Shown: piece by piece, positions 3,712 to 50,049 of the stretch | Position numbering within the stretch: position 1 is the stretch's first letter | Layout: each line of letters starts with the position of its first letter | From: a virus | Lineage: Duplodnaviria > Caudoviricetes | Strand: one strand, 5' to 3' | Length of the DNA: 62,439 nt | Virus record (IMG/VR): IMGVR_UViG_3300036801_000157 | Coordinates: 1 to 62,439 of that record | Program-made: the position numbers and the translations under genes | The notes under the pieces: model-generated | Database searches by the model: none | Told to the model about the DNA's origin: nothing | The model's input: the letters and a program-made list of their open reading frames with translations, nothing else

Positions 3712-4073
3712 TCGACCTGTGGGCGGATCATGCCAACGTGCGCGCCGTCAACGTGATGATGCTGCTTGCCAAGATGCGGCTTGAAGCTGGGAGATCGCCG
3801 GCGCCCTGGTATCGGGCCGCCGGGCAACACCTCGCGCGCCTGCGCCGCGGGCGGGGCAAGAGCAAATGGGCACAACTTGTGCGCGACGAATGCGGGATCG
3901 GCACCAGTCGCGCTTTCGAACTGATCGCGCTCGGGCGAGGCAAGGCTCTCGCGGAGGCCCGCGCGGAGAATTCCGGTAGAGTTAAAAAGTCACGCAGCTG
4001 CAAAGCGTTACCTGGTCCAAGGGGCCCCAGGAAGACGGCAAATCGCCGCTCTGGCACAGATTCCAAGCATTGA
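3708..4073 (+). CDS. DUF3102-like helical protein
   Basis: AAGQHLARL...KWAQLVRDECGIGTSRAFELIAL pattern. Confidence 0.55.
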   Translation: MIDLWADHANVRAVNVMMLLAKMRLEAGRSPAPWYRAAGQHLARLRRGRGKSKWAQLVRDECGIGTSRAFELIALGRGKALAEARAENSGRVKKSRSCKALPGPRGPRKTANRRSGTDSKH

Positions 4074-4111
4074 TTATATTGACGTTTTCCTGTCGCGGAC
4101 GGGGCTCGAAG

Positions 4112-4621
4112 GTGGCCAACGACGAGGTCCAGCTCGCTTTGATCGCCGAGGCCGCGCCGCTCCGGGTGGCCGCCAAGCCATTCGTCGTCTTCGAGATTGC
4201 CGGCGAGCCGAAGGCCTGGGGCCGGCCGGGCGCAACCATTCGTTGGGCTAGTGGTCGACCGTTCATCCACTGGTATGTATCGGCGCCAGAGGCCGCCTAC
4301 AGGACCGCAGTAGCTTGGTGCGCCAAGAGTGCCATGAAGGGCCGAAAGCCCACCAGCGAGCCCGTGGCGCTGCTGGCGCATGCCTTCGTTGGCATTCCTC
4401 CAAGCTGGCATTGGCTCACCAAGCAAAAAGCGCGTTCTGGCGCGCTGTTGCCGACCGGAAAACCAGACCACGACAATTTTCTGAAACTTCTCTGCGATGC
4501 CTTGCGCGGAATTGTTTGGCTCGATGATGCCGCCGTCGTCGATGGCCGATGCATTAAACGATTCAGCGATCGACCAGCACTTAGATGCGAGGTCAGAGAA
4601 TTCACTTCGTCGCTAAAATGA
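4112..4621 (+). CDS. rusA: RusA family Holliday junction resolvase
   Basis: GEPKAWGRP, KPDHDNFLKLLCDAL, VWLDDAAVV motifs; probable GTG start. Confidence 0.9.
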   Translation: MANDEVQLALIAEAAPLRVAAKPFVVFEIAGEPKAWGRPGATIRWASGRPFIHWYVSAPEAAYRTAVAWCAKSAMKGRKPTSEPVALLAHAFVGIPPSWHWLTKQKARSGALLPTGKPDHDNFLKLLCDALRGIVWLDDAAVVDGRCIKRFSDRPALRCEVREFTSSLK

Positions 4622-4653
4622 AAACGGGCCGCGTTTGGATCGCGACCCGCTTC
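4621..4653 (-). terminator. Hairpin terminator closing array 1 (possibly bidirectional with rusA)
   Basis: GCGGGTCGCG-loop-CGCGGCCCGT followed by TTTT on the minus strand. Confidence 0.6.
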
Positions 4654-4660
4654 ATTCATT

Positions 4661-5806
4661 ACTGCCTTGCGTTGCCCAGCCTTTCCGGACCGGACCACGC
4701 CAAGCCTCACCCGATCACATCTCGCCACAACCGGACAGACCGCGCCTGCCGAACCAAGCCTAGCCACGCCATGTCGCATCCCGCCCCACTACGCCATGTC
4801 GCACCCCGCCACGCCTGCCAAGCCTGATCAAGCCTGTTCGAATCGAGTCGAGACATGCCATATCCCCGCCGCGCCTGCCTTCCATGCCAAATTTAACGCT
4901 GCCGAACGGACCTCGCCATATCGCGCCTGCCTTCCATGCCGCGCCCAATTCGACCCAACCACACCGGAACCTGTCGCACCCGACCATGTTTAGCCGAGCC
5001 GCGCCTGCCTGACCCAGCCTCTGCTCGCCGAACCCGGTCTAGGCTAGTGTTGCCACGCCTGCCATACCGACCGGAACTTATCTTGTCGCGCCCAGCCAAT
5101 CCCCGTCCCGTCTCGCCATGCCTGCCACGCCATGCCTTGCCTCACCCGACCGCACCGGGCCGTACCCTGTCCCACCGAACCATGCCGCACCGAACCATGC
5201 CGCGCCTTGCCGGACCCAACCGCGCCTGCCTCGCCACGCCCCGCCTGACCGTATTCAGCCCAGACGAACCTTACCCGACCCGACCACGCGCGCCGCGCCT
5301 GCCTCGCCCTACCTTGCCTCGTTACACCCAACCTTGCCAAACCCAATCCCACCTCGCCATTCCTGCCACGCTTGCCGGGCCTATCCTCGACCGACCTAGC
5401 CTTGTATCGCCAAGCTATATCAAGCCCCGCCTGCCAGACCTCGCCATGCCACGCCGGACCTTGTCTTACCTAGTTCCACCCCACCTCGCCTCGCCACGAT
5501 GCGACGCGCCATACCGCTCCTGCCATGCATGTCCATGCCTCGCCTCACGGCGCCCAGCCGGACCTCACCTCATCGGGACTTGCCCCGCCTGCCTTCCTTG
5601 CCTTGCCATGCCTTATTGCACCCGGCCCAGACACGCCCCATCTCGACTTACCGATCCTGCCATGCCCAGCCCAGCCTCACCTTTCCAGACCATGCCGTGC
5701 CACGCCCCACCTTGACTATCCGTGCAAGACCAAGCCCCGCCTGCCATAGATCACCGCGCCCGCGATTGCGCCGAGCGTTGCGCTGCCAATCCGCACCGTG
5801 CCTGCC
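4661..5806 (-). ncRNA. Array 1: about 15-16 GGCAGG-delimited units of GGY-NN pentamers (putative gapped guide RNAs)
   Basis: On + strand CCTGCC delimiters end at 4750, 4819, 4879, 4931, 5009, 5063, 5126, 5230, 5303, 5367, 5435, 5524, 5593, 5661, 5745, 5806; between them a 5-nt NN-RCC period; ORFs across it are low-complexity shadows. Confidence 0.9.
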
Positions 5807-5860
5807 GAGCTTTTTCCGCTTCATAGATGCGGTGGCCCACGCGAGGAGCGCCTCGCGCCG
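5796..5860 (-). promoter_or_regulatory. Conserved structured leader of array 1
   Basis: 51/65 ungapped identity by hand to 7682-7746; CCGC-loop-GCGG hairpin. Confidence 0.75.
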
Positions 5861-5866
5861 CGGAAT

Positions 5867-6352
5867 TTATGCAGCGAGTCGTTGCTCCAAATCGATCAGT
5901 TCTTGAAGCATCCGCTGCAATAAACCAGACAAACCTGGATGTCTCGAATCGAGCATATGCGTAACATCACGCGCGCGTTCGATCGAACTCTTACAACGCA
6001 TAACTTCAGCCAGCACAATGCGTTCAGCCGCGCTGCGATTGATTGATGTGGCTGTGATCGGAACATGGCCGGCTTCGTTGTCGCGACGATCCGGATTTGA
6101 GACGTAATACGGCGAAACTATTCGCATCGATTCGTGAACGACTGTAACTGTTATGAATCGAATTAGTTCACCAGCCCGATCGAGCCGTTGCTTGTGCGCC
6201 GCCTTTCGGTCATCCCAAATAAATTCTGAATGCAATACATGCCGCGCTGGACGAGCAGCGCGGACGATGTCCTCTCGCTTCAGCACGCCGCCGTTCGCCT
6301 CGCGGATTTGCTCCAGCGCGTCGCGGATTTGATCATCTCTGCGCGATGCCAT
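5867..6352 (-). CDS. Accessory protein of the RAMP/array system (161 aa)
   Basis: Overlaps the RAMP stop codon (TAATG); GVL..EDIVRAAR...LHSEFIWDD.KAA...RL..A.ELIR motif; lies between RAMP gene and array 1. Confidence 0.8.
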   Translation of the reverse strand: MASRRDDQIRDALEQIREANGGVLKREDIVRAARPARHVLHSEFIWDDRKAAHKQRLDRAGELIRFITVTVVHESMRIVSPYYVSNPDRRDNEAGHVPITATSINRSAAERIVLAEVMRCKSSIERARDVTHMLDSRHPGLSGLLQRMLQELIDLEQRLAA

Positions 6353-7242
6353 TATTCAATCCCCACATATTCTGCCTCGCCCTTGCCATCAAGCTTTTCA
6401 AGAATCACTGGGCCTTTCGGCATCGGCCGACGCTTGCCTTTGCGGTCCACCAGTTCATGATCCTCGGCATCGATAAGCTGGCCAAGCATCTCGCGCCGCG
6501 CGACTTCTTCGGAAAACCAAGTCAGTAGTTCTTCGGTGTTTTCATCGAAAAATCCAGGTGATTTGAACGCCTTGTCCTGCGCCGTGCGCGCTTGGGTCTT
6601 GACGATGCGCTTGAAATCAGCATTATTGGATTCGACGACATCGTAAGCGCCGAATGGTCCGCCTTTCTGGCCACGCCAATCGCCGATGCCGACGATCTTG
6701 CCGGCGGCGCCAAAGAGATTCACGACGGTTCGCTCTGTCAGGATGCCTCGGATGTAGCGAAAGGTGATCGTGCCGCACCACTCCGGAAAGATCGGCCGTG
6801 TGCGAACGTCCGGCGTGCGATTCTGGTCAGAATTGCGCACCATTGCGCAATAAATTTCTGGCGTGCCATATAGGTTTACCTGCAATTCTACGATCTTGGT
6901 GAGCCGCTCGATTTTGGCTTTTGCCGTTCCTGGAATGTCGAGCGCGACCGCCGACAATGCGCCGTGAAATGCGCCGGACGGAACGTGAATGAGCGTCTTC
7001 TCTTTCAGATCGCGGTTGACATAAAGCGCGCCTCTGAACTCAGCAGGCGGATCGTGCTTGAGGCTCTGTTCCAGCCCAGCCCGGTTCTGCCTGATGCTTG
7101 GGAACAGCAATTCCCGCCAAGCCTTTGCGGCAAATCTATTCATGATCATCGGAGACGTGCCGAGGAAGTTCATCGTCACTTCGTCGATCTTGATCTCCTG
7201 GATTTCGAGCTGCGCCTCTTCTTTTTTCCTCTTCGGTGCCAT
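6352..7242 (-). CDS. RAMP/Cas7-like RNA-binding protein (putative Vipr-type effector)
   Basis: N-terminal LGTSPMI strand; IHVPSGAFHGAL (cf. RAMP IP.SS.KGAL); Gly-rich loop GIGDWRGQKGGPFG; flanked by arrays; no cas genes in the window. Confidence 0.8.
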   Translation of the reverse strand: MAPKRKKEEAQLEIQEIKIDEVTMNFLGTSPMIMNRFAAKAWRELLFPSIRQNRAGLEQSLKHDPPAEFRGALYVNRDLKEKTLIHVPSGAFHGALSAVALDIPGTAKAKIERLTKIVELQVNLYGTPEIYCAMVRNSDQNRTPDVRTRPIFPEWCGTITFRYIRGILTERTVVNLFGAAGKIVGIGDWRGQKGGPFGAYDVVESNNADFKRIVKTQARTAQDKAFKSPGFFDENTEELLTWFSEEVARREMLGQLIDAEDHELVDRKGKRRPMPKGPVILEKLDGKGEAEYVGIE

Positions 7243-7426: not shown

Positions 7427-7690
7427 CCTTCCAGGTCGGCCTGACCGCGCCTGTCCTAGCCTCACGCGCCCCGCCGCACCGAGACTTACCCAGCGTGCCT
7501 CGCCTGCCAAGCCATGCCGAACCGGACTGTACCCAGCAACACCTGACCACAACATATCACGCCGTGACGAACCCCGCCTGCCTCGCCGCGCCGAACCGAT
7601 CTGTACCTTGTCCTGACGTGCCCAGACGTGCCCGGACATACCAAGCCTGCCCTACAATTCCGAGCAAATGGACGTGCCGCGCCGTGCCTA
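7427..7690 (-). ncRNA. Array 2: 3 full GGY-NN units plus leader-proximal part
   Basis: Delimiters end at 7432 (CCTTCC), 7508, 7582, 7651; 5-nt period; leader 7682-7746. Confidence 0.85.
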
Positions 7691-7755
7691 CCGACCGTTT
7701 ACCGCTTCATAGCTGCGGGCGGCCGCGCGAGAAACGTCCCGCGCCACAGCGTGTG

Positions 7756-8340
7756 TCATACGCCGGAATTTCTTGAATCGTCAAGCAGCGCATTGACGCG
7801 CTCTGACGCTTGCACAGTATCGTCGAACTGTTCAACCCCCCATTTGCCAGCGCCGATCAGTTTCACAACATAACTGCCGTGCGTAATTTCGATATCTTTT
7901 TCTGGCAGCACCAACCAAACACGATCGTGAATTCTAATATGAACCAACAAAATTTCATCGGCAGATCGCACATGCAAGCCACGCAACGACATCGCCTTTA
8001 ATTGTTGATAATATGGCGCATCTTTCCACACATCAGGATAATCAGGATCAACCGTGCACGTCACACATTGGACTCCATTGAAAACACCAAGACTTAAAAT
8101 CATGTGACTCAATAATGGAAACCATTCATGGCCGACTTTCGGGCTCATCAGCCAGCCACATGCATAGGTGCGACATATCTGCGGACGCGCTTCGTAAATT
8201 CCGCAGCCACCGCAGCCAGGCCGACAGTGCTCGCACCAAACGCCTGCCGGCTTGGATAATTCGGCAACAAATAATAATCGGCAGCATTCGGAACACTTGC
8301 CGCAGGATCGTCCTGGCGCGATTGGCGGGCCACCGTGCAT
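7756..8340 (-). CDS. Cys-cluster protein (YkgJ/CxxCxxCC-like)
   Basis: RSCGKCSECC, WCEHC, CGIYEARPQICRTYAC; start set at TGATG overlap. Confidence 0.75.
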   Translation of the reverse strand: MHGGPPIAPGRSCGKCSECCRLLFVAELSKPAGVWCEHCRPGCGGCGIYEARPQICRTYACGWLMSPKVGHEWFPLLSHMILSLGVFNGVQCVTCTVDPDYPDVWKDAPYYQQLKAMSLRGLHVRSADEILLVHIRIHDRVWLVLPEKDIEITHGSYVVKLIGAGKWGVEQFDDTVQASERVNALLDDSRNSGV

Positions 8341-9716
8341 CACGTTGTCCATATTCCAAACCCGACCGGCGCGGGATAAATAAACGGCGTGCCGGATACG
8401 GTGCCGCCGAAATTGCCGACCATCTGATCGTTGATCGCGCCGCTGGCGCCGCCGAAGCAGACCGCAGGCGCCATCGGCGACGACGCCTGGATGACCACAC
8501 CGCCGATGCCAGTGTTCGGATTCTCGGAACCGAGAACAAGCCCGTTCCAATTGCCGCCGTTCTTACGCAGCCACGCTTTGCGCGCGCCGAGATCGATCGC
8601 AAAGCTGATCACATCGCCAGATGTGCACGCGCCGAGCGTCTTGCCGCTATTAGCGCTGTTGGAAAATATATTTCCTGTCGACCTGTAGAGCGCCGTGCAT
8701 TGAATGCCGCCGACCATATTGTTGAAAGAGCCGGTCGACGAAAGTAGTCCTGGACAATCGGATGCGCCATGCGTCACGGCCATCGTGACTTCGAAATAAT
8801 ACTTGCCTGCCGTTTTCTGCGTTGTGCTGATAGCACCGCCATTGGCGACTGTGCTGGTGCGGGTCACCGATAATTTGCTGGCCGACAGCGAGACCGCAGC
8901 CGCCGTGCCGTCGAATGATGCTGGCTGACCACTGACGACGACTGGTATGTAAAATGCTTCCTGGTCGAACATGACATCGATATCGATTATTTGATTGCCG
9001 CCGAACAACGACAGAAGATAGATGGCGTCAGTGTCTGTTGCTAAGCCGGCGAACAATGTCGCGATAACATCGCTTCGTGCAGCATAGATCGCGTCGCTAT
9101 CAGTCACCAACGAGACGCCGAGCACTGTCGCGCTCGTGCGCGCTGGTGGATAAAACACATCCAGATCATTGACGAAAGGCGCAAACAGGAAATTTCGAAA
9201 CACGATCGGCGCGAACACCGAGTCCGATTCCGTGTGCCGGCCTGGCAGCACAGTCAATGGCGTGCTCAATTCCGGCGCAAACACCATTTCGAAATCTCCG
9301 AACAGGCTTGGTCGCACCGATCCAGGGAGCCCGACGACCGCCGAGAATATCGCGTCATCACTATTATATATGTTTGGCCATACGCTGCCAGGTGCCACCA
9401 CTGGCGCGATGGAAGGCAACGACAGAACGTCACCGTCGAAATAGATCATCGGCGTGACGACCTGATCGCCTTTCAGGATTGGCGCAAACACGAAATCGTC
9501 GGTGATCAGGAATCCAATATTCATAGCTTGTGGAATTATGGCGGCAAAAATAGAATCTAATTCGGATACAAATGGCGACGACAACAATTGAGTGACGGCA
9601 TAATCGAACGCAATGAACGGACCCATAATACCGTCGGCGTCATCGTAATAACGCGTTGGACCAATCACACCGCGAGGCGTGAGCGTTCCGATCTGCGCAA
9701 TGATGCCTGAGATCAT
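8340..9716 (-). CDS. Virion protein with D.D..Y.P repeats and C-terminal SPRY/ConA-like domain
   Basis: GKYYFEV, GDVISFAIDL...KAWLRKNG, NFG...F.YPAP.GF. Confidence 0.7.
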   Translation of the reverse strand: MISGIIAQIGTLTPRGVIGPTRYYDDADGIMGPFIAFDYAVTQLLSSPFVSELDSIFAAIIPQAMNIGFLITDDFVFAPILKGDQVVTPMIYFDGDVLSLPSIAPVVAPGSVWPNIYNSDDAIFSAVVGLPGSVRPSLFGDFEMVFAPELSTPLTVLPGRHTESDSVFAPIVFRNFLFAPFVNDLDVFYPPARTSATVLGVSLVTDSDAIYAARSDVIATLFAGLATDTDAIYLLSLFGGNQIIDIDVMFDQEAFYIPVVVSGQPASFDGTAAAVSLSASKLSVTRTSTVANGGAISTTQKTAGKYYFEVTMAVTHGASDCPGLLSSTGSFNNMVGGIQCTALYRSTGNIFSNSANSGKTLGACTSGDVISFAIDLGARKAWLRKNGGNWNGLVLGSENPNTGIGGVVIQASSPMAPAVCFGGASGAINDQMVGNFGGTVSGTPFIYPAPVGFGIWTT

Positions 9717-15155: not shown

Positions 15156-15611
15156 CTAGCCTACTGCTTCGCCAGTCTCTTCAAGCGTTAGGCTCCATTT
15201 GACCCTGCGGCCGTATTCGTTGATGCTCTGCTGCACGCCAGTCACCATCATCATGAGACGCGGCCGGTAGATCGTGAATGCGCCGACGACGCGCTCTGAG
15301 CCATCAACGACAGGCCGTGATGGCGCGCCACCCACTGTCCGATATACCAGCTCGGCCACACAATCTACAGTGACCTTCATGCCTTGGAACACACCATCGA
15401 ACGCAGGGGCCTCGACATCGCTGCAGGTGATGACGGATTCGTACTTCTTGAATTTATCAACCGCCAGATCGACCAGAAGACCATTCACAGTTCGCCGAGG
15501 TGCCGCCACAGCTTTAATCGGATCGAGCGTCTGATCTAAATTTCTCGCAGAATATAATGGTACGCCATTGGATAAAAGCACCAATAGTGTCTGTTCAGCT
15601 GGGAGACTCAT
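15156..15611 (-). CDS. Putative distal tail protein
   Basis: RRTVNG.L, W.LTLEE motifs; downstream of tape measure; start re-assigned to 15611. Confidence 0.65.
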   Translation of the reverse strand: MSLPAEQTLLVLLSNGVPLYSARNLDQTLDPIKAVAAPRRTVNGLLVDLAVDKFKKYESVITCSDVEAPAFDGVFQGMKVTVDCVAELVYRTVGGAPSRPVVDGSERVVGAFTIYRPRLMMMVTGVQQSINEYGRRVKWSLTLEETGEAVG

Positions 15612-15624
15612 TAATTTTTCCTCT

Positions 15625-15660
15625 CTTGCATTTTCTTCAGAATTATGGCCATATCGGCCG
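15625..15660 (+). promoter_or_regulatory. Putative promoter of array 3
   Basis: CTTGCATT-N14-GGCCA-TATC-GGCCG. Confidence 0.6.
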
Positions 15661-15715
15661 CTTGCTTTCTCGCAATCGGTCCATCGGGCGCTGCGCTTGC
15701 GACACGCTCGATCGA

Positions 15716-15815
15716 CTAGGCATGGCATGGCGAGGCAGGCGTGGTTGGTCTCGGCAGCGTCCGTCTGGGTGCGGTGTACCTAGGCAGAGCGGAGCACGGC
15801 TAGGCTTGGCAGGCA
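15716..15815 (+). ncRNA. Array 3: single-unit GGY-NN mini-array
   Basis: GGCAGG at 15734 and 15808 bracketing 14 pentamers; intergenic, antisense to the tail operon. Confidence 0.8.
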
Positions 15816-15819
15816 AGTA

Positions 15820-15858
15820 AGCCAGGGCCGCAGTGATGCGCCCCTGGCTCTCTTTATT
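15820..15858 (+). terminator. Terminator after array 3
   Basis: AGCCAGGG...CCCTGGCT stem plus CTCTTTATT. Confidence 0.65.
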
Positions 15859-38204: not shown

Positions 38205-40919
38205 TCACTGCCCCGTCTGCGATCTTCGCTGCAATGATGTCAACGGCGCCTGCTTCGCACCTCGCGCCTTGCCAGGTGCCTTCGCCTTGGGTGCGGCTTT
38301 TGCCTTCTTCGGCTTCGGAGCTGCCTTAGCCTTCGGAGCCGCTTTCGGCTTCGGACCTTTCTTTGGCTTGGGCCCAGCCTTGGCCTTGCCGCCTCCTTTG
38401 GCACCCTTACCACCACCGCCACCTTTGCCGCCGCCCGATCCCTTGCCTTGGCCTTGACCCTGGCCTTGACCCTGGCCCTTCTGCGGCTTGTCTCCCTTGG
38501 CTGCGGCCTTCGCCTCTTTCGCAGCCTTCGCAGCGTCCGCCTTCGCGGCCTGCGCGTCCGCGCGCGCCTGCTTGGCATCAGCCTTGTCCTTCGCGCTGGC
38601 GTCTTTCGCAGCCGCCTTCTCCTCGGCCTTCTGCGCTTTCGCCTCGGCCTTGGCAGCCTTGTCCGCAGCCTTAGCCTCAGCCTTGGCGGCCTTGGCCTCC
38701 GCACGCGCCTGCTTGGCCTCGTCTTGAGCGTTTTGCTTTTGGTTCGCCTTCAAATCCTTGTCAGCCGCCTTGGCCTCGGCGGCAGCCGCCTTCGCCTCGG
38801 CCTTGTCCGCCCGATCCTTGGCGGCCGCAGCCTGCTTGTCGGCCTTCGCCTGCGCGGCCGTCTTGTTCGCCTCAGCCTTCGCGGCCTCCTTTGCAGCGGC
38901 CGCCTCGGCCTTTGCCTTGTTGGCCTCGTCACGCGCCGCCTTGGCCGCGTCCTTGTCCGCCTGCTTGGCGTCTTTCGCCGCCGCCTTGGCCTCAGCCGCC
39001 TTGGCCTTTTCCTCAGCCGCGTCGGCCTTGTCTTGCGCCCTGTCCGCTTCCTTGTCGGCCTTCGCCTGCGCCTTTTCCGCTGCAGTTGCCTCTTTCGCCT
39101 TGCCTGCCTCGGCCTTCGCAGCCTCCTTTGCCGCAGCCGCCTCGGCCTTTGCCTTGTCAGGCTCTTTCGTAGGCTTCTCGGCGGCCTTGCCCTTCTCAGG
39201 TGTCTTCTCAGCCGACTTATCAGGCTTCTTGGATTTCTCGGGCTTACTGGCACCACCACCGGGAGACGAGGCAAACAGGCCAGCGGGCCCGTGATTCGGA
39301 TTGAAGTCGGCAACGACGCCACGGGCGTCGCCCGCACCCTTGCCACCTGGGAACGTGCTCTTGCGCATGTTCGGCGGAAGCTGCCCAGTCTGCCCTGGCT
39401 GCGGCGGTGGCGGCCCGCCAGGCATGCCACCAGGCCCGGGTGGCGCTACCGGCGGCGGCGCATTCGGATCGAACGGCGCGGTATGCTGGCCAGGGCCAAA
39501 CAGCGTTCCAACCGGCGCCGGCTGCGGCGTGTTCTGTTCCTCGATCGTGTCGCCTTCCATGGCCGCGTCGTCGAGCGCCTTCTCAAAGCCAGGATAAACG
39601 CCGTCCTCGATCAACTGATTGGCACGCCCATTGGCCAATGCCACCGGCGGTAATTGCGCGGCATTCACGTCGATCTGGTACGCCTGCGCTTTCTTGAGCG
39701 CGATGTCGGCCTTGTCGCCATCCGACAATTGCCACAGCGAATTCCATTCGTACCAGACCTCGGGCGGACGCGTACCGAGCGCCGAGCGGATCAGCACCTC
39801 GTCGAGCGCCGTCATCGCAGGAGTCAACGTAACCGTCTGCTCCGAGGACAGCCGATCGTAATAGTTCCTGAAATCAGCCTCTCCAGTCACATTCAATCCG
39901 CGATGCGGCAATCCGAGAAATCTGCCAGCCGGAATATCCACCGCGCCGGAAGCGATCTGTAAATATGTCGAAAGCACCTGTGGCGCAGCCGTTAGATTGG
40001 CCTCGACGCGCTGCCATTTCTCGTTGCCATCGATCAGCACTGTGTTGATGACGCTCTTGGCGGCATTCGCGGCCTGGAAGCGAGCGATCATCTTGCGCTC
40101 GCCTTCCTTGGTCGACAGAATGCTCTTCAATTCAGGAACGCTGATGATGTCGACCTTCATTTCGGCTACCAGCGTCGCCAGCGAGCCGGAAACCAGCGAG
40201 CACATTTTCACAGCATCGCTCACCGCTTGCAGAACGCTGTCGCCCCAGACCGTGTTTAATAATTGATCGGCAGTGTCCATGCCGATCAGCTTGATCACCC
40301 GCGAAGGGTGCAGCCTCACCTGCGTCTTGGAAAAATTCGGATCAGATGGATCGTTGGTCTGGAATGATCTATCGACCGGACGGTTCTGCGCTTCGTAATA
40401 TTCAGGCTGCCCGTAATATCTCGACGAAATGTCGTAAATAACCGGTCCCATGCTGATCTGATTGCGCGAGACGACGTGCAAGAACTTCAGCGAATCCTTG
40501 GTGACATCATCGTAATTAAGCTCCTCCTCGGGATCGCCGGCATCGACTCCGATGATGATCGCCGAGCCGCCATAAAGCCGCGCCTTGATCAGAGCTTGCT
40601 GAACCTTCTTCTGTAACAATAATTTCTTTTCGGTCGCCTCCAGCAATTGAATCTGATCCGGATCGGCCTGCCAATTCCGCCATTGTCGCGTCATGTCGAA
40701 AGCGGGAACATCAACCGCTTTCCTACTAATCCAATCGCCGCGATAACTAAATTCCAATTCCTGCGTCGTCAATAATGCGAATGTGTAGGCCTGCGACATG
40801 AATTTGTCGCGGCCAGGAACGCCAAGACCAGCGAGCAAATTAATATAACCGTCAGACCACCGGACGGCCTCCGTCGGCGGCATGCTTACAACATTGTCTT
40901 GCGCATCAGTCATGATCAC
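38205..40919 (-). CDS. Portal protein (DUF1073 type) with long Lys/Ala-rich C-terminal tail
   Basis: Y..DW..RK.VD.PA.DM.R.W, ARLYGGS, HPSRV, IP..R.LG, GEAD..NYYD, W..LW. Confidence 0.9.
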   Translation of the reverse strand: MIMTDAQDNVVSMPPTEAVRWSDGYINLLAGLGVPGRDKFMSQAYTFALLTTQELEFSYRGDWISRKAVDVPAFDMTRQWRNWQADPDQIQLLEATEKKLLLQKKVQQALIKARLYGGSAIIIGVDAGDPEEELNYDDVTKDSLKFLHVVSRNQISMGPVIYDISSRYYGQPEYYEAQNRPVDRSFQTNDPSDPNFSKTQVRLHPSRVIKLIGMDTADQLLNTVWGDSVLQAVSDAVKMCSLVSGSLATLVAEMKVDIISVPELKSILSTKEGERKMIARFQAANAAKSVINTVLIDGNEKWQRVEANLTAAPQVLSTYLQIASGAVDIPAGRFLGLPHRGLNVTGEADFRNYYDRLSSEQTVTLTPAMTALDEVLIRSALGTRPPEVWYEWNSLWQLSDGDKADIALKKAQAYQIDVNAAQLPPVALANGRANQLIEDGVYPGFEKALDDAAMEGDTIEEQNTPQPAPVGTLFGPGQHTAPFDPNAPPPVAPPGPGGMPGGPPPPQPGQTGQLPPNMRKSTFPGGKGAGDARGVVADFNPNHGPAGLFASSPGGGASKPEKSKKPDKSAEKTPEKGKAAEKPTKEPDKAKAEAAAAKEAAKAEAGKAKEATAAEKAQAKADKEADRAQDKADAAEEKAKAAEAKAAAKDAKQADKDAAKAARDEANKAKAEAAAAKEAAKAEANKTAAQAKADKQAAAAKDRADKAEAKAAAAEAKAADKDLKANQKQNAQDEAKQARAEAKAAKAEAKAADKAAKAEAKAQKAEEKAAAKDASAKDKADAKQARADAQAAKADAAKAAKEAKAAAKGDKPQKGQGQGQGQGQGKGSGGGKGGGGGKGAKGGGKAKAGPKPKKGPKPKAAPKAKAAPKPKKAKAAPKAKAPGKARGAKQAPLTSLQRRSQTGQ

Positions 40920-40955: not shown

Positions 40956-41016
40956 TGCGGCGTCGAGCGTTCTCGGCGCGGTCGCCCGGTAGCGTTAAAC
41001 CGGGAATTGATCGAGG

Positions 41017-41366
41017 GGCACGGTTCGGACAGGCGAGAACGAGGCGCGGCCAGACAGCGCTCGATAATCTTTGGCAGGAGCGGCTAGACCGGACGGGGCG
41101 AGGCTGGGCATGGCGCGTTCGGGCAAAGCGCAGCGTGGCAAGGCAGGCGTGGTTGGGTTGGACATGGTGCGGCATGGACTGGCGGGGTCAGGCGGGGCTT
41201 GGCCTGGCAGGCCAGGCACGTCGGGCGCAGCGAGTCTAGTGCAGGCAAGGCACGGCGCGGCGAGGCATGTCGCGGCAGGGATTGGCATGGCAGGCGCGGT
41301 CCGGTGCGGCTGAGCAGGACGTGGCTGGGCGCGGTGCGGATTTGCCCGGCAACGCAAGGCCGGCAG
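41017..41366 (+). ncRNA. Array 4: 4 full GGY-NN units plus leader-proximal part
   Basis: GGCAGG at 41073, 41142, 41206, 41289, final GGCAG 41362; leader 40956-41024 resembles leaders of arrays 1 and 2. Confidence 0.85.
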
Positions 41367-41373
41367 AATGTTT

Positions 41374-41407
41374 GGTGGCGGTCGTCCTTCGGGGCGGCCG
41401 TCATTTT
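41374..41407 (+). terminator. cUUCGg hairpin terminator after array 4
   Basis: GGCGGTCGTCC-TTCG-GGGCGGCCGTC then ATTTT. Confidence 0.75.
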
Positions 41408-43233
41408 CAACGCATCCTGCGCGCACGAATAAATCCAGTCGCGGTCGTAGTCGGCCCTAGCCCCACAAGATAAATCGTGGTGGCGACGTTGACGTTGAAA
41501 CGGCACACACCCGTCGGCATCGACATCGCCGCCTTGCCGAAATTCATCGAGAGATCATTCATGGCGCCGACGCCGGTCGCGAGCTGCGCCGCGGTCGGCA
41601 ACACGGCCGACGCATTGCTGATCGCAACGGCCATTCGCGTCGCGGCTGATGCTGGCGCGACGAAGCTCACCACACCGGAAACATCCCAATCGCCAGGACT
41701 CAGCAGAAGAGAGCCGATATTCGCAGCAATGCCGCTAGTGAGATTGACGGCCGTCGTAACCGAGGTCGAGAGAACCTCCCCAATTTTGCCAGCCGCCGCA
41801 TTGTCGGCCGCAATGGTGCCATTAGCAGCCGCCCGTGACGTATCGGTCGGATGGACATGATCGCCGCGCGACCATGCAGTTGCGACCCCAGTTGCAGCCG
41901 TCCCGTTCATGGTCGGGATGGCGTTCGAGGCGCCCGGCGTCAGCGGCACAAAAATCAAATTGTCGGTGCCTAACGTGGCCGTGTTATTCGGGTTTGCCGA
42001 AACCGCAACCGGACCAGGCGGGCCAGGAATGCCCTGCGCGCCGGATGTACCCTGTGTGCCGGCCACGCCCTGGGTGCCCTGTAGACCAGCTACGCCAGCC
42101 ACGCCGGCCGGCCCCTGTGGTCCCATTGGACCCATCGCGCCAGCGGCACCTTCTGGTCCCTGTAATCCTGCCGGTCCAGCAGCGCCCTGTTGCCCAATGA
42201 CCCGAACACCGAACAACACATTCGGCTTGTTGCCGCTAAGCGGCGTCGTCCCCTGCTTGACGAACGTCACTGCGAAAGAAACATAGGTGGTATTGTCGAC
42301 TGGCGGTCCGTTCAGCGTATAGACGGCATAGCAAGTCGAGTCGTTCGCCGCCTGGACGAAAACCTCGTCCCCTGCATTCGCCAAAAGCAATTGCAAGCGC
42401 TCGTCGACACCGTTCTGGTCAAGCGAGGCCACCCAGATTTGCGTGTTGCTCGGAGCATCCGCCCCATCAGTGCGGATCATTCCGTTGCCAGGCGGCGGCG
42501 TGGCAGCCGAGGCATACGCCCATGGCCACAAGCTGGTCGACGTGCCCGGCGAGCCCTGCGGTCCTTGTGGCCCGATTACGCCGGGATCACCTTGAGGCCC
42601 CGGCATGCCCTGTAGCCCGCTCGTACCGTCCTGGCCGGCGGCACCAGCCGGTCCTTGATCTCCTTGAAGCCCTTGGGGGCCTTCTAATCCCTGTGGCCCC
42701 TCAGCCCCGTCTTGCCCGGCCGGCCCTTGTGGACCTTGAGAGCCCTGGGGCCCGAGGTCGCCTTGCGGACCTGGAACACCCGGCGCGCCGTCAACGCCGG
42801 CAACGCCCGGCGGACCGACGGGCCCAGCCGGCCCTGGATCACCTTGTGGACCGGCCGGCCCAGGTGGCCCGACGCCACCAGCGCTGCCTACCGCGGTCCA
42901 ATCCGCATTCTGGCGCCCGTAAATCGTGCCGTCCGTCGGCGCCTCGGCAATGCCGCCACCGCCATCGGTCGGCACCGTCGGACTGCTGCCATCCTGCGAA
43001 AACACCGCATCCGCGCGCCCGCGCATGAGGACGCCTTCATTGATCAGTGCCTGCTGGAACGAAGCCATGATCGGGTCGTCGAGGTCGACCCAATTGAGCG
43101 CTATCGCTTGATCCCAGCGCCGCATGATGTTGCCGCCGACAAACTGCACGCCGCGCATGCGATGACGGAACAACGAAAATTCAGCGTCGGTGAACCTGCT
43201 CGTCCAATCCGTGAATGTGAGGTATGCTCCCAT
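41407..43233 (-). CDS. Collagen-like fibre protein
   Basis: Two long Gly-X-Y tracts; [19 protein letters not shown]-terminal GDWDV...IRARR.R. Confidence 0.85.
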
Positions 43234-43244
43234 TGTTCTCCAGC

Positions 43245-45587
43245 TCAATCCGCTCCAATCCAGCCAAGATCGAGATCGTAATTGCGAGCGCGATCATCGA
43301 AGCATTTCCATGCAAGACCAAGGGCCATACAGCAATCGTCAAAAAGTCCAGGAGGAGCCGCATAGCGAATACCAAGGCGAGTCCATTCGTATTCCATGGA
43401 TAGCAGCTCGATGCTGATCGGCCCCTCGGGAAACCGCACCTTGCGCTCGTGGATCGCCAACCCGAGCCCTTCCATCAGCCCCTGCTTGGACGCCTGCGTG
43501 AACCTGAAACCTTCGAGCCGCGGACAACTCAGCTCGATCACCTCGGCGCGGTTCGATCCGCTGCGCACCGGCAGCTTGATGGCTTCGACTATCGGATCAC
43601 CGACACCAGTCTCATCCACCAAAGCAGGCGTGTTGCCCACGTATTTCTTGATAATGTCCACTGTGACATGCCAAGGCCGCTGGAAGCGCAACGCTTCGCA
43701 GACGTGGCCATCCTCATCAAGGCCGATGCCGACCGTATAATCCACCTTTCTCGCCAGGTCCCAGCCCCATGCCACCGCGGGCCGCTCGCTCAATGGCGCA
43801 AAACATGCCCTGATATGCTGGGCACCGAACGGATTGCCCTCGTCGTCGCTCGGCTCGGCGAGATAAAGCTCCTTGAAGACATGCTCTGGCAGCATCGCCT
43901 TCGCCGATCTGATCTCCTCATCTGCGAGCACGCCAGCAGCAACCGCATCCCATGCCGTTATCTTGTGGTAACCGAAATTCGGCATGCCTTGCTCGGCCAA
44001 ACGCGCCAATTGGAAAAACCAGTTTTGGCGTCCCTTGACATTTCCGATTATGCGGATCGGACCGCGCGTCGCCGTCAGTGTCGAGCGGATGGCATGAAAT
44101 GCCTCTTCACGACATCTGCTCGCTTCGTCCACTACGCAGGCATAGACATCTTCACCGTAAAGTGAATTACCAGACCAGCAAGGCTTTCCGTTGCGCCTGA
44201 CAAGAATGCATGTATTCGGAACCGAAACACAATGCACCGTACCATCATATGAGCGGCCCTCATAAAATGGACCGGCCTTCGTTGAACTAAGACATCGCGA
44301 TGTCAATTCCGAAAACATAACTCGATAGAGTGGAGCGCGCTGCATAATGTCGCGTCCATCCTTCAATTTGCCGGATGACATCTCCGGATTTGGATGTTTG
44401 ACGCCGATAATCGCGCTATAGCCGCACTTGAGAGCGATTTCCTGAATATCGTCCGCTAGCCGTTTACTAGCTGTCCAGATGACTTCAATATGCCCACGAC
44501 GGATGCAACCATCACCCATGGCGAGCCACACCAGCAATGTGCGCAGCTTATCCGGTGGAAGCTGCTTCACTGCACATGGAATATATTTTTTATATTTGTC
44601 GCCCAACACAACAAGATAAGACCAAAGTTCCTTGTCCCATATTTTTAATCCGGCCGAATATTCTTTCGTCTTGTGCCCTAATCTTGCAAGCACTTCGCCA
44701 AACGCTTCTCGAACTTCGCCCTTCTCGCCACCCTTGATCCCAGCCGTTTGTGCAAAATGAATGCGATAACCGTTGCGCGCCACGAGCGCTGCAGCTTTCT
44801 CAATTGTGCTGGCATTGCCAAGAGCCGAACCTTCAGCCAAATAGAAACCTAAAAATGCGCAAAAATCATGCGTCATGACATCGTTGTCAAAGCCATCCCA
44901 TCGAGAGTGCATTGGAATCGTATCATACGCCTTTAGCTCACTCGCTGGCACCCACATTTCAACTGATCTCGGCTTGGCACGCCTACCTGGACCGAGCCGA
45001 GATGCTCCACGCTTGCGCTGCACAATCTGCCGATGATTTGGTGTCACCAACAAATCGATCTTGTTCGCCCGAATGGCGACCATTTCGCCATTATAAGGCT
45101 GATGAATGATACGCGTTGGTCGTTGCCATTCAGCCACCCCACCAGGTGATCGCGTCATCACATCGTCCGTAGTGAGAACATCTGCAAAATACTTCCACCC
45201 ATCCAGAGTAAGCACCTCTGTCTCACTGTCATAACAGTCAGGCCGATCAGAGCCGCGAAATGCAATCACCGCGCCATTGATCATAGTCAGCGTATGATCG
45301 GTAAGGTGGGTGGTGAAAACCGATCTCCCATCCTGATCGAGAAAATGCTGACGCATCCGATTGAAGGCAATGCGAGCCTGCAATGTGACCGGCGCAACCC
45401 ACCAAAAATTCTGTCCTGGCCCGCCCTTGAGCGCCTGCTCGTACAGCCAAATGATGGCGCTCACCGTCTTGCCAGATTTAGCGCTCGCCTCGATCAGCGA
45501 AATGCGCGCCGGATCGAACATGGCCGCGCGCTGCTTTTCATACAGCGGCGGCCGCTTGTAGATGATCTCGTGCGCCTGCTCGCTCAT
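43245..45587 (-). CDS. terL: Terminase large subunit containing an intein
   Basis: ASAKSGKT Walker A, VVDEA Walker B, GWDLA..VDYT, DETGVG, DDCCMAL. Confidence 0.92.
44166..45236 (-). mobile_element. Intein (357 aa) with LAGLIDADG endonuclease
   Basis: Starts [10 protein letters not shown], block [14 protein letters not shown] and MGDG motifs, ends VHCVSV...RRNGK..WSGN followed by Ser. Confidence 0.9.
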
Positions 45588-47095: not shown

Positions 47096-47282
47096 CCAAT
47101 TTGATTAAATTCTTCAAGCCGAACCGCACCCACCCGGTCCGCCGCAAGCCCGTCCCTTCCTGACCTCACTTCTCCGATCTGCCGCACGCCACACCGCCCC
47201 ACACCATCCCATCACTCAGCCCCATATTGCGTAGGCGATGATCATTGCTATCACCACCAGAAACGCCAACAGAAGCCAACTG

Positions 47283-49814: not shown

Positions 49815-50049
49815 CGAAGCACCTCCGTTGCTTTGGTGTTCAGAGATGTCGCTTCCGTGCAAGGAAACGGCATCTCGCCTTCAACTCAAGGCGGCGTCAT
49901 CGCCCATGCGATCAACGCGAACATAGCCGCCGTCGCCACCACCACGATCGAGGCCTGAACGCGAATGTCTTGATCGATGCTCGGCGCCACCATGACAGCG
50001 CAGATCACAGCAGCCACCGCGATAGCCAAAGCAACGATCACGCCACGCA

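What the first reader, a model, noticed from the sequence alone, without database searches (positions are those of the whole stretch)
41017..41366. Every array sits beside the gene it mimics: homing or allele-exclusion logic
Seen: all four arrays contain units matching genes within about 550 bp (rusA and accessory gene; Cys gene; tail gene; portal and fibre). Known: free-standing phage homing endonucleases cut cognate alleles near their insertion site while the linked allele is resistant. Inference: guide cassettes spread as linked guide-plus-resistant-allele units in mixed infections, or guides are built from local templates by an unknown acquisition route.
Basis: inference. Interest (0 to 1): 0.85.

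Follow-up and report, generated by a model that had tools for sequence, protein, structure and literature searches.

The report
Phage guide arrays beside immune genes
A soil phage keeps its VIPR guide RNAs right next to its own recoded copies of the genes those guides recognise in rival phages, so weapon and immunity are inherited together.

Summary
The region 41017-41366 is a real array. It is one of four "staggered" VIPR vrRNA arrays made of GGYNN pentamers with GGCA between units. They are served by a Cas7-like Vipr protein (6352-7242) and an accessory gene (5867-6352). VIPR was described in 2026 preprints.

It holds under VIPR's published one-nucleotide-skip code. For 6 of 19 guides the best hit in the whole genome lies within 600 bp of the guide (shuffles: mean 0.49, maximum 3). 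Other skip rules give essentially none.

Orthologues in VIPR-less relatives match better than the phage's own genes:
- Portal: 23-25 of 26 in relatives, 20 of 26 in the own gene.
- rusA 3' end: 25 of 26 in a relative, 16 of 26 in the own gene.

The own alleles are recoded at the target sites. Leu/Ser/Arg codon-family switches occur at 9 of 12 conserved residues inside target windows and 43 of 169 outside (p = 0.0008). The whole 3.1-kb cassette sits between rusA and a Cys-rich gene, both of which its guides target, and these two genes are adjacent in a relative.

The link between guide and immune allele is therefore supported. The fibre match, any homing-type DNA cutting and any local guide-writing route are not. 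The pattern is rare in other VIPR loci. Verdict: a new variant of a known system, of high interest.

The parts
41012..41367 (+). Array A4, the finding itself. It is a staggered vrRNA array of GGYNN pentamers. Its full units are at 41077-41141, 41146-41205, 41224-41288 and 41293-41352. It runs antisense to the flanking portal and fibre genes.
41077..41141 (+). Guide A4.r1 (13 pentamers). It specifies portal codons 58-70 as they occur in relatives.
   Evidence: Matches are 25 of 26 in G001, G006 and G007, 24 of 26 in G002 and G003, 23 of 26 in G004, and 20 of 26 in the own gene. An exact 24-base gapped pattern finds 3 IMG/VR contigs.
41375..41404 (+). Hairpin followed by AUUUUC at the 3' end of A4. 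It is stable only on the + strand because it relies on G-U pairs.
   Evidence: -33 kcal/mol (z -4.4) on the + strand, -17.6 kcal/mol (z -1.0) on the - strand. The simple terminator scan did not call it.
40711..40749 (-). The own, recoded ('immune') portal site. It reads S-Y-R-G-D-W-I-S-R(AGG)-K-A-V where relatives read A-Y-R-G-D-W-I/L-A-R(CGC)-K-A-V.
38205..40919 (-). Portal gene.
   Evidence: PF06381 at E 8.9e-91 and phrog_146
41407..43248 (-). Collagen-like tail fibre gene. The claimed guide match to it is not significant.
4637..5815 (-). Array A1, about 16 units, lying downstream of vap.
4662..4746 (-). Guide A1.r14, the unit nearest rusA. Its first 13 pentamers match the last 13 codons of rusA in relatives.
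   Evidence: Matches are 25 of 26 (29 of 34 overall) in G002 and G003, and 23 of 26 in G007. The shuffle maximum is 24 of 34.
4576..4614 (+). The own, recoded rusA 3' end. Changes include two Arg CGN to AGA switches, V to C, M to F, V to T, two P to S, and an added Leu.
   Evidence: 16 of 26 matches to the guide
4070..4621 (+). RusA Holliday junction resolvase gene.
   Evidence: PF05866 at E 4.6e-22
5662..5741 (-). Guide A1.r2. Its best hit anywhere is the own vap gene at 6092-6139 (24 of 32).
   Evidence: The shuffle maximum is 21-22. No better foreign allele was found.
5867..6352 (-). The vap accessory gene (161 aa). It is helical, has no known fold and shows no nuclease signature.
   Evidence: A homologue lies next to vipr in G005.
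6352..7242 (-). The vipr gene (296 aa), a Cas7/Csm3-like RAMP protein.
   Evidence: Arrays lie on the same strand in 36 of 56 loci that carry a homologue.
7431..7705 (-). Array A2, upstream of vipr. Its guides are at 7583-7647 and 7509-7578. A terminator lies at 7350-7334.
7756..8550 (-). Cys-rich gene (264 aa). It contains near-cognate sites at 7927-7965 (21 of 26) and 8044-8085 (18 of 28). Orthologues give 19-20 of 26 and 20-21 of 28.
15716..15822 (+). Array A3, with a single guide at 15738-15807. It runs antisense to the tail genes.
15156..15728 (-). 190-aa gene next to the tape measure gene. Its own site at 15528-15569 is recoded by four synonymous family switches (Leu, Ser, Arg, Leu).
   Evidence: The own gene gives 19 of 28, G002 22 of 28 and G006 21 of 28. 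All 4 conserved L/S/R residues inside the window are switched, against 1 of 21 outside.

Best explanation
The tract is one of four VIPR guide-RNA arrays of a 62-kb soil phage. Transcripts of the G-rich strand would be cut into vrRNAs of roughly 10-20 GGYNN repeats. This is the 'staggered' form, in which units overlap by 1 nt. Each vrRNA would be coated by the Cas7-like Vipr protein encoded 34 kb away. The filament reads double-stranded DNA through the NN dinucleotides and skips every third base, so it recognises codon positions 1-2 of a gene.

In this phage the guides with identifiable targets specify conserved stretches of the portal gene, rusA, a Cys-rich gene, a tail-region gene and vap, as these genes occur in related phages. 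In every case the guide lies 50-500 bp from the phage's own copy of that gene. The own copy has been recoded at that site, often by synonymous Leu/Ser/Arg codon-family switches, so that it escapes its own guide.

I read each guide plus recoded allele as a linked weapon-and-immunity pair. Tight linkage would be kept by selection, because recombinants that inherit the guide with a sensitive allele silence themselves. A rival that escapes by recombining in the immune allele would tend to pick up the guide as well.

What is shown: the array anatomy, the Vipr fold, the gapped matches and their position, the better match to foreign alleles, the recoding, and the cassette-plus versus cassette-minus synteny. 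What is inferred: transcription and processing, silencing of rivals, and the selective reason for linkage.
For: Anatomy and identity:
- The arrays are GGYNN pentamers with GGCA punctuation. This fits the published vrRNA definition and the staggered-array legend.
- The Vipr fold model has pLDDT 77.8. Its top Foldseek hits are all Csm3, Cmr4 or Cas7 (E 2.7e-5, probability 1.0).
- Of 56 loci carrying a homologue, 36 have arrays, and every array is on the vipr strand.

Adjacency:
- 6 of 19 guides have their top own-genome hit within 600 bp, against a shuffle mean of 0.49 and maximum of 3. Skip rules 0, 2 and 3 give 0.2, 0 and 0.
- 10 of 23 strong windows lie within 1 kb against 0.74 expected, and the control rules give none.

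Foreign alleles match better than own alleles:
- Portal: 23-25 of 26 in six vipr-less records, 20 of 26 in the own gene.
- rusA: 25 of 26 and 23 of 26 in relatives, 16 of 26 in the own gene.
- g190: 22 of 28 against 19 of 28. Cys gene: 21 of 28 against 18 of 28.

Recoding: conserved L/S/R residues have switched codon family at 9 of 12 positions inside target windows and 43 of 169 outside (Fisher p = 0.0008). In g190 the counts are 4 of 4 against 1 of 21.

Synteny:
- In G002, rusA and the Cys gene are convergent neighbours 98 bp apart. The window holds A1-vap-vipr-A2 between them.
- In G001 a 159-aa ORF occupies the slot that A4 fills here.

Independent example: the guide in L081 just upstream of its own vipr matches foreign vipr genes at 23 of 24 but its own at 17 of 24.

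Published work shows VIPR silencing of competitors, solo vrRNAs, and self-match scores lower than non-self scores.
Against: - Only 6 of 19 guides have any identified target; 13 have none in 755 kb of relatives. One exact-pattern scan of IMG/VR for guide 41146-41205 found nothing.
- The Cys-gene and g190 matches to relatives (75-79%) are below the 80% cut-off that the VIPR authors use. One guide matches its own Cys gene at 21 of 26 (81%), which is as good as or better than any relative.
- The portal target window is not an outlier for divergence across the whole portal alignment: 32% of sliding windows differ as much.
- AGR codons make up 19.5% of Arg codons in this genome, so single switches are not rare. 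Family switching outside the target windows is already high in the Cys gene (16 of 28) and rusA (7 of 19).
- Adjacency is not general. Only 3 of 130 guides in other loci exceed the null, as under the control rules. G005 and Saal show none.
- Silencing a rival's structural gene in a mixed infection could be complemented in trans, so the benefit needs a setting such as lysogeny or cis effects. I did not establish the lifestyle.
- There is no expression data.
Confidence: 0.7

Rival explanations
1. Local writing of guides. An unknown adaptation route would copy the neighbouring gene into the array, converting each codon into a GGYNN unit. The guide would therefore record the ancestral local allele, and the own gene would have been recoded afterwards.
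For: Guides lie 50-500 bp from the gene they resemble. Guides match the allele shared by relatives, which is probably ancestral. No other explanation forces adjacency mechanically.
Against: A new guide against an essential own gene such as the portal would be self-silencing at birth. No reverse transcriptase, Cas1-like or integrase-like gene was found in the cassette or among the 20 ORFs that I scanned. Turning a 3-nt period into a 5-nt period has no known enzymology. Most guides (13 of 19) resemble nothing local. The VIPR papers, in the sections I read, describe no acquisition.
Confidence: 0.1
2. Self-regulation in cis. The partial matches (62-81%) to the phage's own neighbouring genes would be the functional ones, letting Vipr tune transcription of the portal, tail, rusA, Cys and vap genes. 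The better matches in relatives would be incidental.
For: Guide 7583-7647 matches the own Cys gene at 21 of 26, and guide 5662-5741 matches the own vap at 24 of 32. No better foreign allele is known for either. The L068 guide matches its own vipr at 17 of 20. A3 and A4 are antisense inserts inside late operons.
Against: For the portal and rusA the foreign sites match at 88-96% and the own sites at 62-77%. The own sites carry changes that remove matches without changing the protein, which is the opposite of what a regulatory site would keep. In the published work, disrupting vrRNA NN base pairing abolished silencing, and no self-hit of 80% or more was found in the sets examined.
Confidence: 0.1
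3. True homing. The cassette would direct a cut or a replication block at the cognate site of cassette-less relatives, and repair from the cassette-bearing genome would copy in the guide and the flanking immune allele. This is how free-standing phage homing endonucleases work.
For: The targets lie beside the cassette's insertion point in cassette-less relatives: the rusA 3' end and the Cys gene. The own alleles are resistant. A recombination gene (rusA) is next door. Some published VIPR types carry nuclease vap genes.
Against: No nuclease domain or fold was found in vipr or vap. The only HNH gene (49254-49862) lies elsewhere in the genome. The characterised VIPRs bind and repress. In G007, rusA and the Cys gene are 27 kb apart, so the insertion site is not fixed.
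Confidence: 0.07
4. Chance or composition. G-rich repeats in a GC-rich genome would simply throw up gapped matches to nearby GC-rich coding sequence.
For: Individual own-genome scores are only slightly above the shuffle ranges, for example 20 of 26 against a null maximum of 20-21 for the portal.
Against: Only the 1-nt skip rule gives nearby hits. The hits are in codon phase. Orthologous sites in up to six independent relatives score 23-25 of 26. Across 202 guides, hits of 85% or more number 10 under skip 1 against 2, 1 and 1 under the other rules.
Confidence: 0.02

Closest known systems
VIPR systems: Vipr RAMP protein, vap, and vrRNAs of GGY/NN repeats (bioRxiv 10.64898/2026.04.26.720920; I read Results, Discussion and three Methods sections)
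   Same: The arrays are GGYNN pentamer arrays flanking a small RAMP-fold gene and an accessory gene in a phage. The 1-nt skip code aligns with codon wobble positions. Targets lie on either strand. Guides are aimed at competing phages and at other VIPR systems. The staggered array form has 1-nt overlaps.
   Different: Here two arrays sit far from vipr, inside the structural gene block and antisense to it. Every guide with an identified target lies beside the phage's own recoded copy of that target. The targets include the portal gene and a tail-region gene. The Vipr here is 296 aa against the roughly 20 kDa quoted. One guide reaches 81% against its own genome, whereas the paper found no self-hit of 80% or more in its sets. 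I could not see the supplements (data S3, S4), which may hold related cases.
Solo or orphan vrRNAs in VIPR-null SUSP1-like phages (bioRxiv 10.64898/2026.10.15.759431; I read section 8, the Discussion, and Methods sections 26 and 29)
   Same: Guides are carried without an adjacent vipr. Guides aim at relatives' genes. Self-match is lower than non-self match, which avoids autoimmunity. The solo guides sit in the slot where rivals carry the target (vipr-vap1), which is the same positional logic.
   Different: There, immunity comes from deletion of the target, and the targets are vipr, vrRNAs or satellites. Here the target gene is essential and is kept but recoded codon by codon, and the phage has its own Vipr. 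A search of that paper's text found no mention of homing, and 'linkage' and 'portal' appear only in unrelated senses.
Free-standing phage homing endonucleases and marker exclusion (for example the T-even Seg and Mob genes; recalled, not checked in any call)
   Same: A selfish insert lies next to the gene whose foreign allele it attacks. The linked allele is resistant. Flanking markers are expected to be co-inherited.
   Different: No nuclease was found here. Recognition is RNA-guided and reprogrammable. The expected outcome is silencing rather than a double-strand break.
Poison-antidote pairs such as toxin-antitoxin and restriction-modification systems (recalled concept)
   Same: A harmful activity and the immunity to it are tightly linked, so that separating them is penalised.
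   Different: The 'antidote' here is not a gene product. It is a recoded stretch of an ordinary essential gene.
CRISPR arrays and self-targeting avoidance
   Same: Both use a RAMP-fold effector, arrays of guides, and the need to avoid matching the carrier's own genome.
   Different: There is no long direct repeat between spacers. No acquisition genes (Cas1- or integrase-like) turned up in the cassette or among the 20 ORFs scanned. Pairing is non-contiguous. The system is carried by a phage.

Membership tests
VIPR system | Tandem YNNGG/GGYNN pentamer repeats (at least 4 units; typically 9-16 per vrRNA) with conserved GGY and variable NN | tested here: met
   Four arrays were found. The parsed units have 6-22 pentamers, and 50-95% of pentamers start with GG.
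VIPR system | A RAMP-fold (RRM core) Vipr protein encoded beside the arrays | tested here: met
   The AF2 model of the 6352-7242 product (pLDDT 77.8) gives 44 PDB hits at E <= 0.001, and the top ones are all Csm3, Cmr4, Cas7 or Cas7-11. I did not check G-loop or thumb residues individually.
VIPR system | A conserved accessory (vap) gene next to vipr | tested here: met
   The 161-aa gene overlaps the vipr stop codon. A homologue with 31.5% identity follows vipr in G005. The 71%-identical homologue and the 85%-identical Vipr homologue both list a longest contig of 4780 bases. Which of vap1-6 it is could not be told.
VIPR system | Targets recognised by the 1-nt skip rule, with skipped bases on codon wobble positions | tested here: met
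   Only skip 1 gives nearby or orthologous hits. Seven nearby hits are in codon phase by hand arithmetic, and the orthologous codon alignments are shown.
VIPR system | Staggered array architecture, in which the end of one vrRNA overlaps the start of the next by 1 nt | tested here: inconclusive
   GGCA followed by GG at every unit boundary can be read as pentamers overlapping by one G. This fits the fig. S18 legend, but the figure itself and the processing sites were not seen.
VIPR system | vrRNAs are expressed, processed and bound by Vipr; the complex binds DNA and represses | not testable with these tools
   No RNA holder was listed. Strand-specific hairpins follow the arrays on the G-rich strand.
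VIPR system | No self-target at 80% NN match or more (reported for the published sets) | tested here: inconclusive
   18 of 19 long guides are below 80% on the own genome. Guide 7583-7647 reaches 21 of 26 (81%) on the own Cys gene.
Homing endonuclease cassette | An endonuclease encoded in the mobile cassette | tested here: not met
   There are no nuclease families or folds in vipr or vap.
Homing endonuclease cassette | The recognition site lies in the cassette-less allele close to the insertion point, and the carrier's allele is resistant | tested here: met
   The rusA 3' end and the Cys gene flank the cassette and are adjacent in G002. Foreign sites score 25 of 26 (rusA, first 13 pentamers) and 21 of 28 (Cys gene), against 16 of 26 and 18 of 28 for the own sites.
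Homing endonuclease cassette | Break-induced copying of the cassette and flanking markers into the recipient | not testable with these tools
   This needs phage crosses.
CRISPR-Cas | Direct repeats of 20 nt or more separating spacers, plus acquisition genes | tested here: not met
   The only punctuation is about 11 nt, GGCAGGCG[CGT]GG, and it stays within the pentamer register. No Rfam family was matched. No cas1-like gene was found among the 20 ORFs scanned.

The most novel reading that the evidence does not exclude
VIPR guides and the recoded stretch of the neighbouring gene would form selfish, recombination-proof weapon-and-immunity modules. They could insert anywhere in a phage genome, including inside structural operons. 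They would spread when attacked relatives rescue themselves by recombining in the immune allele, which would be RNA-guided marker exclusion without a nuclease. A corollary follows: clustered synonymous Leu/Ser/Arg codon-family switches in conserved phage genes would be scars of VIPR attack. These scars could be used to map this warfare across phage genomes even where no guide is known.
Probability: 0.35. Interest if true: 0.88.

Novelty: new variant of a known kind. Interest (0 to 1): 0.78.

Why it matters
VIPR was described only in 2026. Its known natural targets are satellites, prophage regulators and other VIPR loci.

This phage adds three things. First, guide arrays can be scattered through a genome, far from the effector gene. 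Second, they can aim at core virion and recombination genes of close relatives. Third, the carrier protects itself by recoding the matching codons of its own gene a few hundred bases away.

That gives a concrete, testable population-genetic rule: linkage of guide and immune allele. It also gives a sequence signature of escape, namely switches between the two codon families of six-fold degenerate amino acids, which the wobble-skipping code cannot ignore.

If the rule holds more widely, it would explain part of phage mosaicism and marker exclusion. It would also offer a way to predict which phages exclude which, and it would link RNA-guided silencing with the logic of selfish genetic elements.

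Tried and rejected
- Contiguous similarity between arrays and flanks, by blastn-short and by k-mers of 9-12 nt, was at chance level.
- Rfam and tRNA scans of the window found nothing.
- I first considered Rho-binding sites, Chi-like clusters, G-quadruplex tracts and a TRAP-like protein sponge for the 5-nt period. I dropped these once the VIPR papers were found and the skip-1 code gave specific hits.
- The fibre as a target: 17 of 24 and 19 of 30 in the own gene, and 19 of 30 in G001, all within the null.
- rusA site 4522-4572 for guide 5436-5520: 23 of 34, within the null.
- A possible fifth array at 47116-47210, and four short sub-runs left out of the main parse, gave no hit above the null.
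- The G-rich tracts flagged in G002, G004 and G007 are collagen-like or other G-rich sequence, not arrays.
- An exact gapped-pattern scan of IMG/VR for guide 41146-41205 gave 0 hits.
- G005's 8 guides and Saal's 3 long guides gave no hit above the null in their own flanks or in the relatives.
- Self-locus test on 130 guides from other loci: 3 above the null under skip 1, against 0, 3 and 1 under the control rules.
- Sliding-window divergence over the whole portal gene: the target window is not an outlier.
- The vap fold search found no significant match; the best E was 0.18.
- The vap homologue with 71% identity does not fit the peptide implied by guide 5662-5741 (by hand).
- The genome-contig scan with the Vipr alignment gave only 1 locus.
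- The Cys-gene protein scan of IMG/VR gave no relative.
- The sigma-70 scan found no convincing promoters for the arrays.
- Sequencing runs: no RNA holder was listed, and read laying was not used.
- I did not establish lifestyle or host.
- Supplementary files of the VIPR papers were not opened. They may hold target tables bearing on adjacency.
Full report
What is there. The window is a whole 62,439-bp virus record, and the runs that hold its DNA are labelled soil metagenome. Bases 41012-41367 lie between the portal gene (38205-40919, minus strand; PF06381, E 8.9e-91) and a collagen-like tail fibre gene (41407-43248, minus strand). On the plus strand the tract is a run of pentamers that start with GG and usually a pyrimidine. 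It is split into units of about 60-70 nt by a 4-nt GGCA followed by GGCG[CGT]GG. Three more tracts have the same build: 4637-5815 and 7431-7705 (G-rich strand is minus) and 15716-15822 (plus). On the G-rich strand each tract is followed by a hairpin. The one after the A4 array is stable only on that strand: -33 kcal/mol (z -4.4) against -17.6 (z -1.0). The simple terminator scan called only the A2 hairpin. Rfam and tRNA scans found nothing.

What it is. A literature search led to a 2026 preprint on VIPR systems (10.64898/2026.04.26.720920; I read Results, Discussion and Methods sections 20, 26 and 27). In these systems a small RAMP-fold protein (Vipr), an accessory gene (vap) and vrRNAs made of 9-16 GGY/NN repeats recognise double-stranded DNA. 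They read it through the NN dinucleotides, with one skipped base per repeat. The skipped base usually falls on the codon wobble position, and either strand can be targeted. The legend of the paper's fig. S18 describes 'staggered' arrays whose units overlap by 1 nt. That fits the GGCA|GG boundaries seen here.

The genes between arrays A1 and A2 fit the system. The 296-aa product of 6352-7242 has 697 homologues, all unnamed. Its AlphaFold model (33-sequence alignment, pLDDT 77.8) matches Csm3, Cmr4 and Cas7 subunits (best E 2.7e-5, probability 1.0; 44 hits at E <= 0.001). Of 56 loci carrying a homologue, 36 have GGNNN arrays, and every array lies on the strand of the gene. The 161-aa gene at 5867-6352 is the vap. 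It is helical, has no fold match (best E 0.18) and has only 3 homologues. One of those homologues follows vipr in record G005.

Checking the observation. With ordinary matching the arrays resemble nothing nearby. I then converted each in-register run of pentamers to the pattern xNN and scanned both strands.
- For 6 of 19 guides of at least 10 pentamers, the single best hit in the genome lies within 600 bp of the guide. Shuffling the pentamer order gave a mean of 0.49 and a maximum of 3 in 200 rounds. Skip rules 0, 2 and 3 gave 0.2, 0 and 0.
- Among 10-pentamer windows with at least 16 of 20 matches, 10 of 23 lie within 1 kb (0.74 expected). The other rules gave 0 of 15, 0 of 11 and 0 of 15.
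- The nearby hits are: guide 5662-5741 to vap 6092-6139 (24 of 32; null maximum 21-22); 7583-7647 to the Cys-rich gene at 7927-7965 (21 of 26; null maximum 20); 7509-7578 to 8044-8085 (18 of 28); 15738-15807 to the 190-aa gene at 15528-15569 (19 of 28); 41077-41141 to the portal at 40711-40749 (20 of 26); and 41293-41352 to the fibre at 41506-41541 (17 of 24).
- In the 7 nearby hits that I checked by hand from those coordinates, the skipped base is the wobble base.
- Taken alone, only the vap hit and the first Cys-gene hit exceed their shuffle maxima. The case rests on position, codon phase, the rule-specific controls and the relatives.

Relatives. Protein-seeded and pattern-seeded scans gave seven related virus records, which I fetched whole. 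G001 is a 12-kb fragment (CheckV completeness 16%) whose portal N-terminal region is 94% identical to the window's. G002 and G007 are rated 100% complete, G003 75%, G006 66% and G004 (a provirus) 83%. G005 carries its own vipr, vap and array. None of G001-G004, G006 or G007 has a detectable vipr homologue. For G007 the tool warned that an empty answer shows nothing without a positive control in the same call, and four of the six records are incomplete.

The guide next to the portal matches their portal genes at the orthologous codons:
- 25 of 26 in G001, G006 and G007;
- 24 of 26 in G002 and G003;
- 23 of 26 in G004;
- 20 of 26 in the phage's own portal.

The relatives read A-Y-R-G-D/N-W-I/L-A-R-K-A/V-V. 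The own gene reads S-Y-R-G-D-W-I-S-R-K-A-V, with both Ala codons changed to AGT and one Arg codon changed from CGC to AGG.

The A1 unit nearest rusA (4662-4746) matches the last 13 codons of rusA at 25 of 26 in G002 and G003 and at 23 of 26 in G007. The own rusA end, 50 bp from the guide, scores 16 of 26. It has two Arg CGN-to-AGA switches and several replacements. The A3 guide matches the 190-aa gene's orthologue at 22 of 28 (G002) and 21 of 28 (G006), against 19 of 28 for the own gene. The own site differs by four synonymous family switches: Leu CTC to TTA twice, Ser AGC to TCT, and Arg CGC to AGA. The A2 guides score 19-20 of 26 and 20-21 of 28 on Cys-gene orthologues, against 21 of 26 and 18 of 28 on the own gene.

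Pooled over four gene pairs, conserved Leu, Ser and Arg residues have switched codon family at 9 of 12 positions inside target windows and 43 of 169 outside (one-sided Fisher p = 0.0008). The portal-versus-G002 pair was left out of the pool so that the portal window would not be counted twice.

Cassette-plus versus cassette-minus. In G002, rusA (2130-2792) and the Cys gene (1432-2031) are convergent neighbours 98 bp apart. In the window the 3.1-kb block A1-vap-vipr-A2 lies exactly between them. The outermost guide on the rusA side points at rusA, and two of the A2 guides point at the Cys gene. In G007 the two genes are 27 kb apart, so the site is not universal. At the A4 slot, G001 has a 159-aa ORF instead (474 bp against 492 bp). 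That ORF is a paralogue of window gene 32954-33403. None of the 13 portal-relative loci has an array there.

How general is the pattern? Not very, on present data.
- G005's 8 guides and Saal's 3 long guides show nothing in their own flanks.
- Across loci of at least 6 kb from the same Vipr family, 3 of 130 guides beat all 40 shuffles under skip 1, against 0, 3 and 1 under the control rules. All three of those hits lie within 500 bp of the guide, in vipr or the gene after it, and two come from one phage sampled twice.
- In an all-against-all scan (202 guides, 72 records, 755 kb), 10 guides have hits of 85% or more under skip 1, against 2, 1 and 1 under the other rules.
- One of these is a second clean example from a distant Vipr clade. 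The L081 guide just upstream of its own vipr matches foreign vipr genes at 23 of 24 and its own at 17 of 24.
- Another, in L068, matches its own vipr as well as the foreign ones, at 17 of 20.

Most likely mechanism. The arrays supply guides for Vipr filaments that bind and silence conserved coding stretches of related phages. This is inferred from the published mechanism. The carrier must not match its own guides, and it achieves this by recoding. Because the code ignores wobble bases, the only silent escapes are the two-family amino acids, which is what is seen here.

Tight linkage of a guide to its immune site is best explained by selection against recombinants that pair the guide with a sensitive allele. 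A rival that escapes by recombination would also tend to take up the guide. I hold this composite reading at about 0.7. The selective account of linkage itself rates nearer 0.5.

The rivals are local writing of guides (0.1), self-regulation (0.1), nuclease-driven homing (0.07) and chance (0.02). One open difficulty is that silencing a rival's virion genes during mixed infection can be complemented in trans. Expression from a prophage, or a cis effect on replication or packaging, would solve this, but I did not determine the lifestyle.

Compared with what is in print. The two searches found three VIPR papers and one language-model survey that I did not open. I read the first paper as listed above. 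For the structural paper (10.64898/2026.04.26.720927) I saw only the abstract and outline. For the competition paper (10.64898/2026.10.15.759431) I read section 8, the Discussion and Methods sections 26 and 29, and ran a term search. These papers report solo vrRNAs, guides against relatives' vipr genes, wobble alignment, and self-match lower than non-self match. Term searches in the first paper ('adjacent', 'orphan', 'acquisition', 'self-targeting') and the third ('homing' 0 hits; 'linkage' and 'portal' only in unrelated senses) found no statement that guides lie beside their own recoded orthologue. They also found no mention of arrays inside structural operons, or of codon-family switching as an escape signature. 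The supplements were closed and may bear on this.

Limits. There is no expression or binding data. Thirteen of 19 guides have no target. The Cys-gene and g190 matches are moderate. The relatives are few and come from metagenomes. The parsing thresholds were my own.

Noticed in passing
L001 2987-3237 (Mycobacterium phage Saal, NC_023580.1, about 36584-36834) and L001 3226-3972: Saal, a Cheoctovirus (cluster F by recall), has a very clean (GGCNN)n array with the same GGCA punctuation in an unannotated gap. The 'hypothetical protein' gp51 just downstream is a homologue of this window's Vipr (hhalign probability 98.5%, E 2.6e-15). In one search, 15 Mycobacterium phage records matched the 8-kb query containing array A4; the three listed rows hit the array itself. 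These phages therefore seem to carry unannotated VIPR loci.
   Followed up: partly
window 47116-47210 (minus strand): This is a weaker G-rich tract with a partial 5-nt GG period and no GGCA punctuation, lying between small ORFs and the endolysin gene. It may be a decayed or divergent single vrRNA. No target was found above the null.
   Followed up: partly
L068 5867-5916 against L068 6082-6111 and window 7120-7149: A guide upstream of another phage's vipr matches its own vipr at 17 of 20 and also this window's vipr at 17 of 20. It could be an autoregulatory or anti-VIPR guide that would also touch this phage's effector gene.
   Followed up: partly
L005 1053-1532 (G001 10926-10450) against window 32954-33403: The closest relative carries an extra 159-aa ORF between the fibre and portal genes, where the window has array A4. 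The ORF is a paralogue (41-44% identity) of a gene present once in the window and twice in G001.
   Followed up: yes
window 5815-5866 and 7700-7756 (minus strand): Arrays A1 and A2 are preceded by a shared leader of about 60 nt that contains a small hairpin (CCGC..CTATGAAGCGG) and then AGGCACGG. It may be a promoter or a processing signal. It was not modelled.
   Followed up: no
window 613-1368 (plus strand), repeats at 649-863: This ORF has 48-nt tandem repeats encoding repeated PKRRGRPP motifs, which look AT-hook-like by recall. It has no PHROG family.
   Followed up: no
window 16886-17397: There are 93-nt and 186-nt tandem repeats inside the 1552-aa tape measure gene.
   Followed up: no
window 7756-8550 and 4070-4621 against G002: Even outside the mapped target windows, conserved Leu/Ser/Arg residues often use the other codon family (16 of 28 in the Cys gene, 7 of 19 in rusA, against 1 of 21 in the 190-aa gene). 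This might reflect pressure from other, unseen guides, or just divergence.
   Followed up: no
G007 25433-25531 and 29773-29871: These are intergenic G-rich repeats built on GCGGGGAG-like units in a relative without a detectable vipr. They are not in GGYNN register, and their nature is unknown.
   Followed up: no
window 43245-45587 and 49254-49862: The terminase large subunit ORF is 780 aa long, and its N-terminal part hits a thymidylate-synthase PHROG. An HNH endonuclease gene lies at 49254-49862.
   Followed up: no
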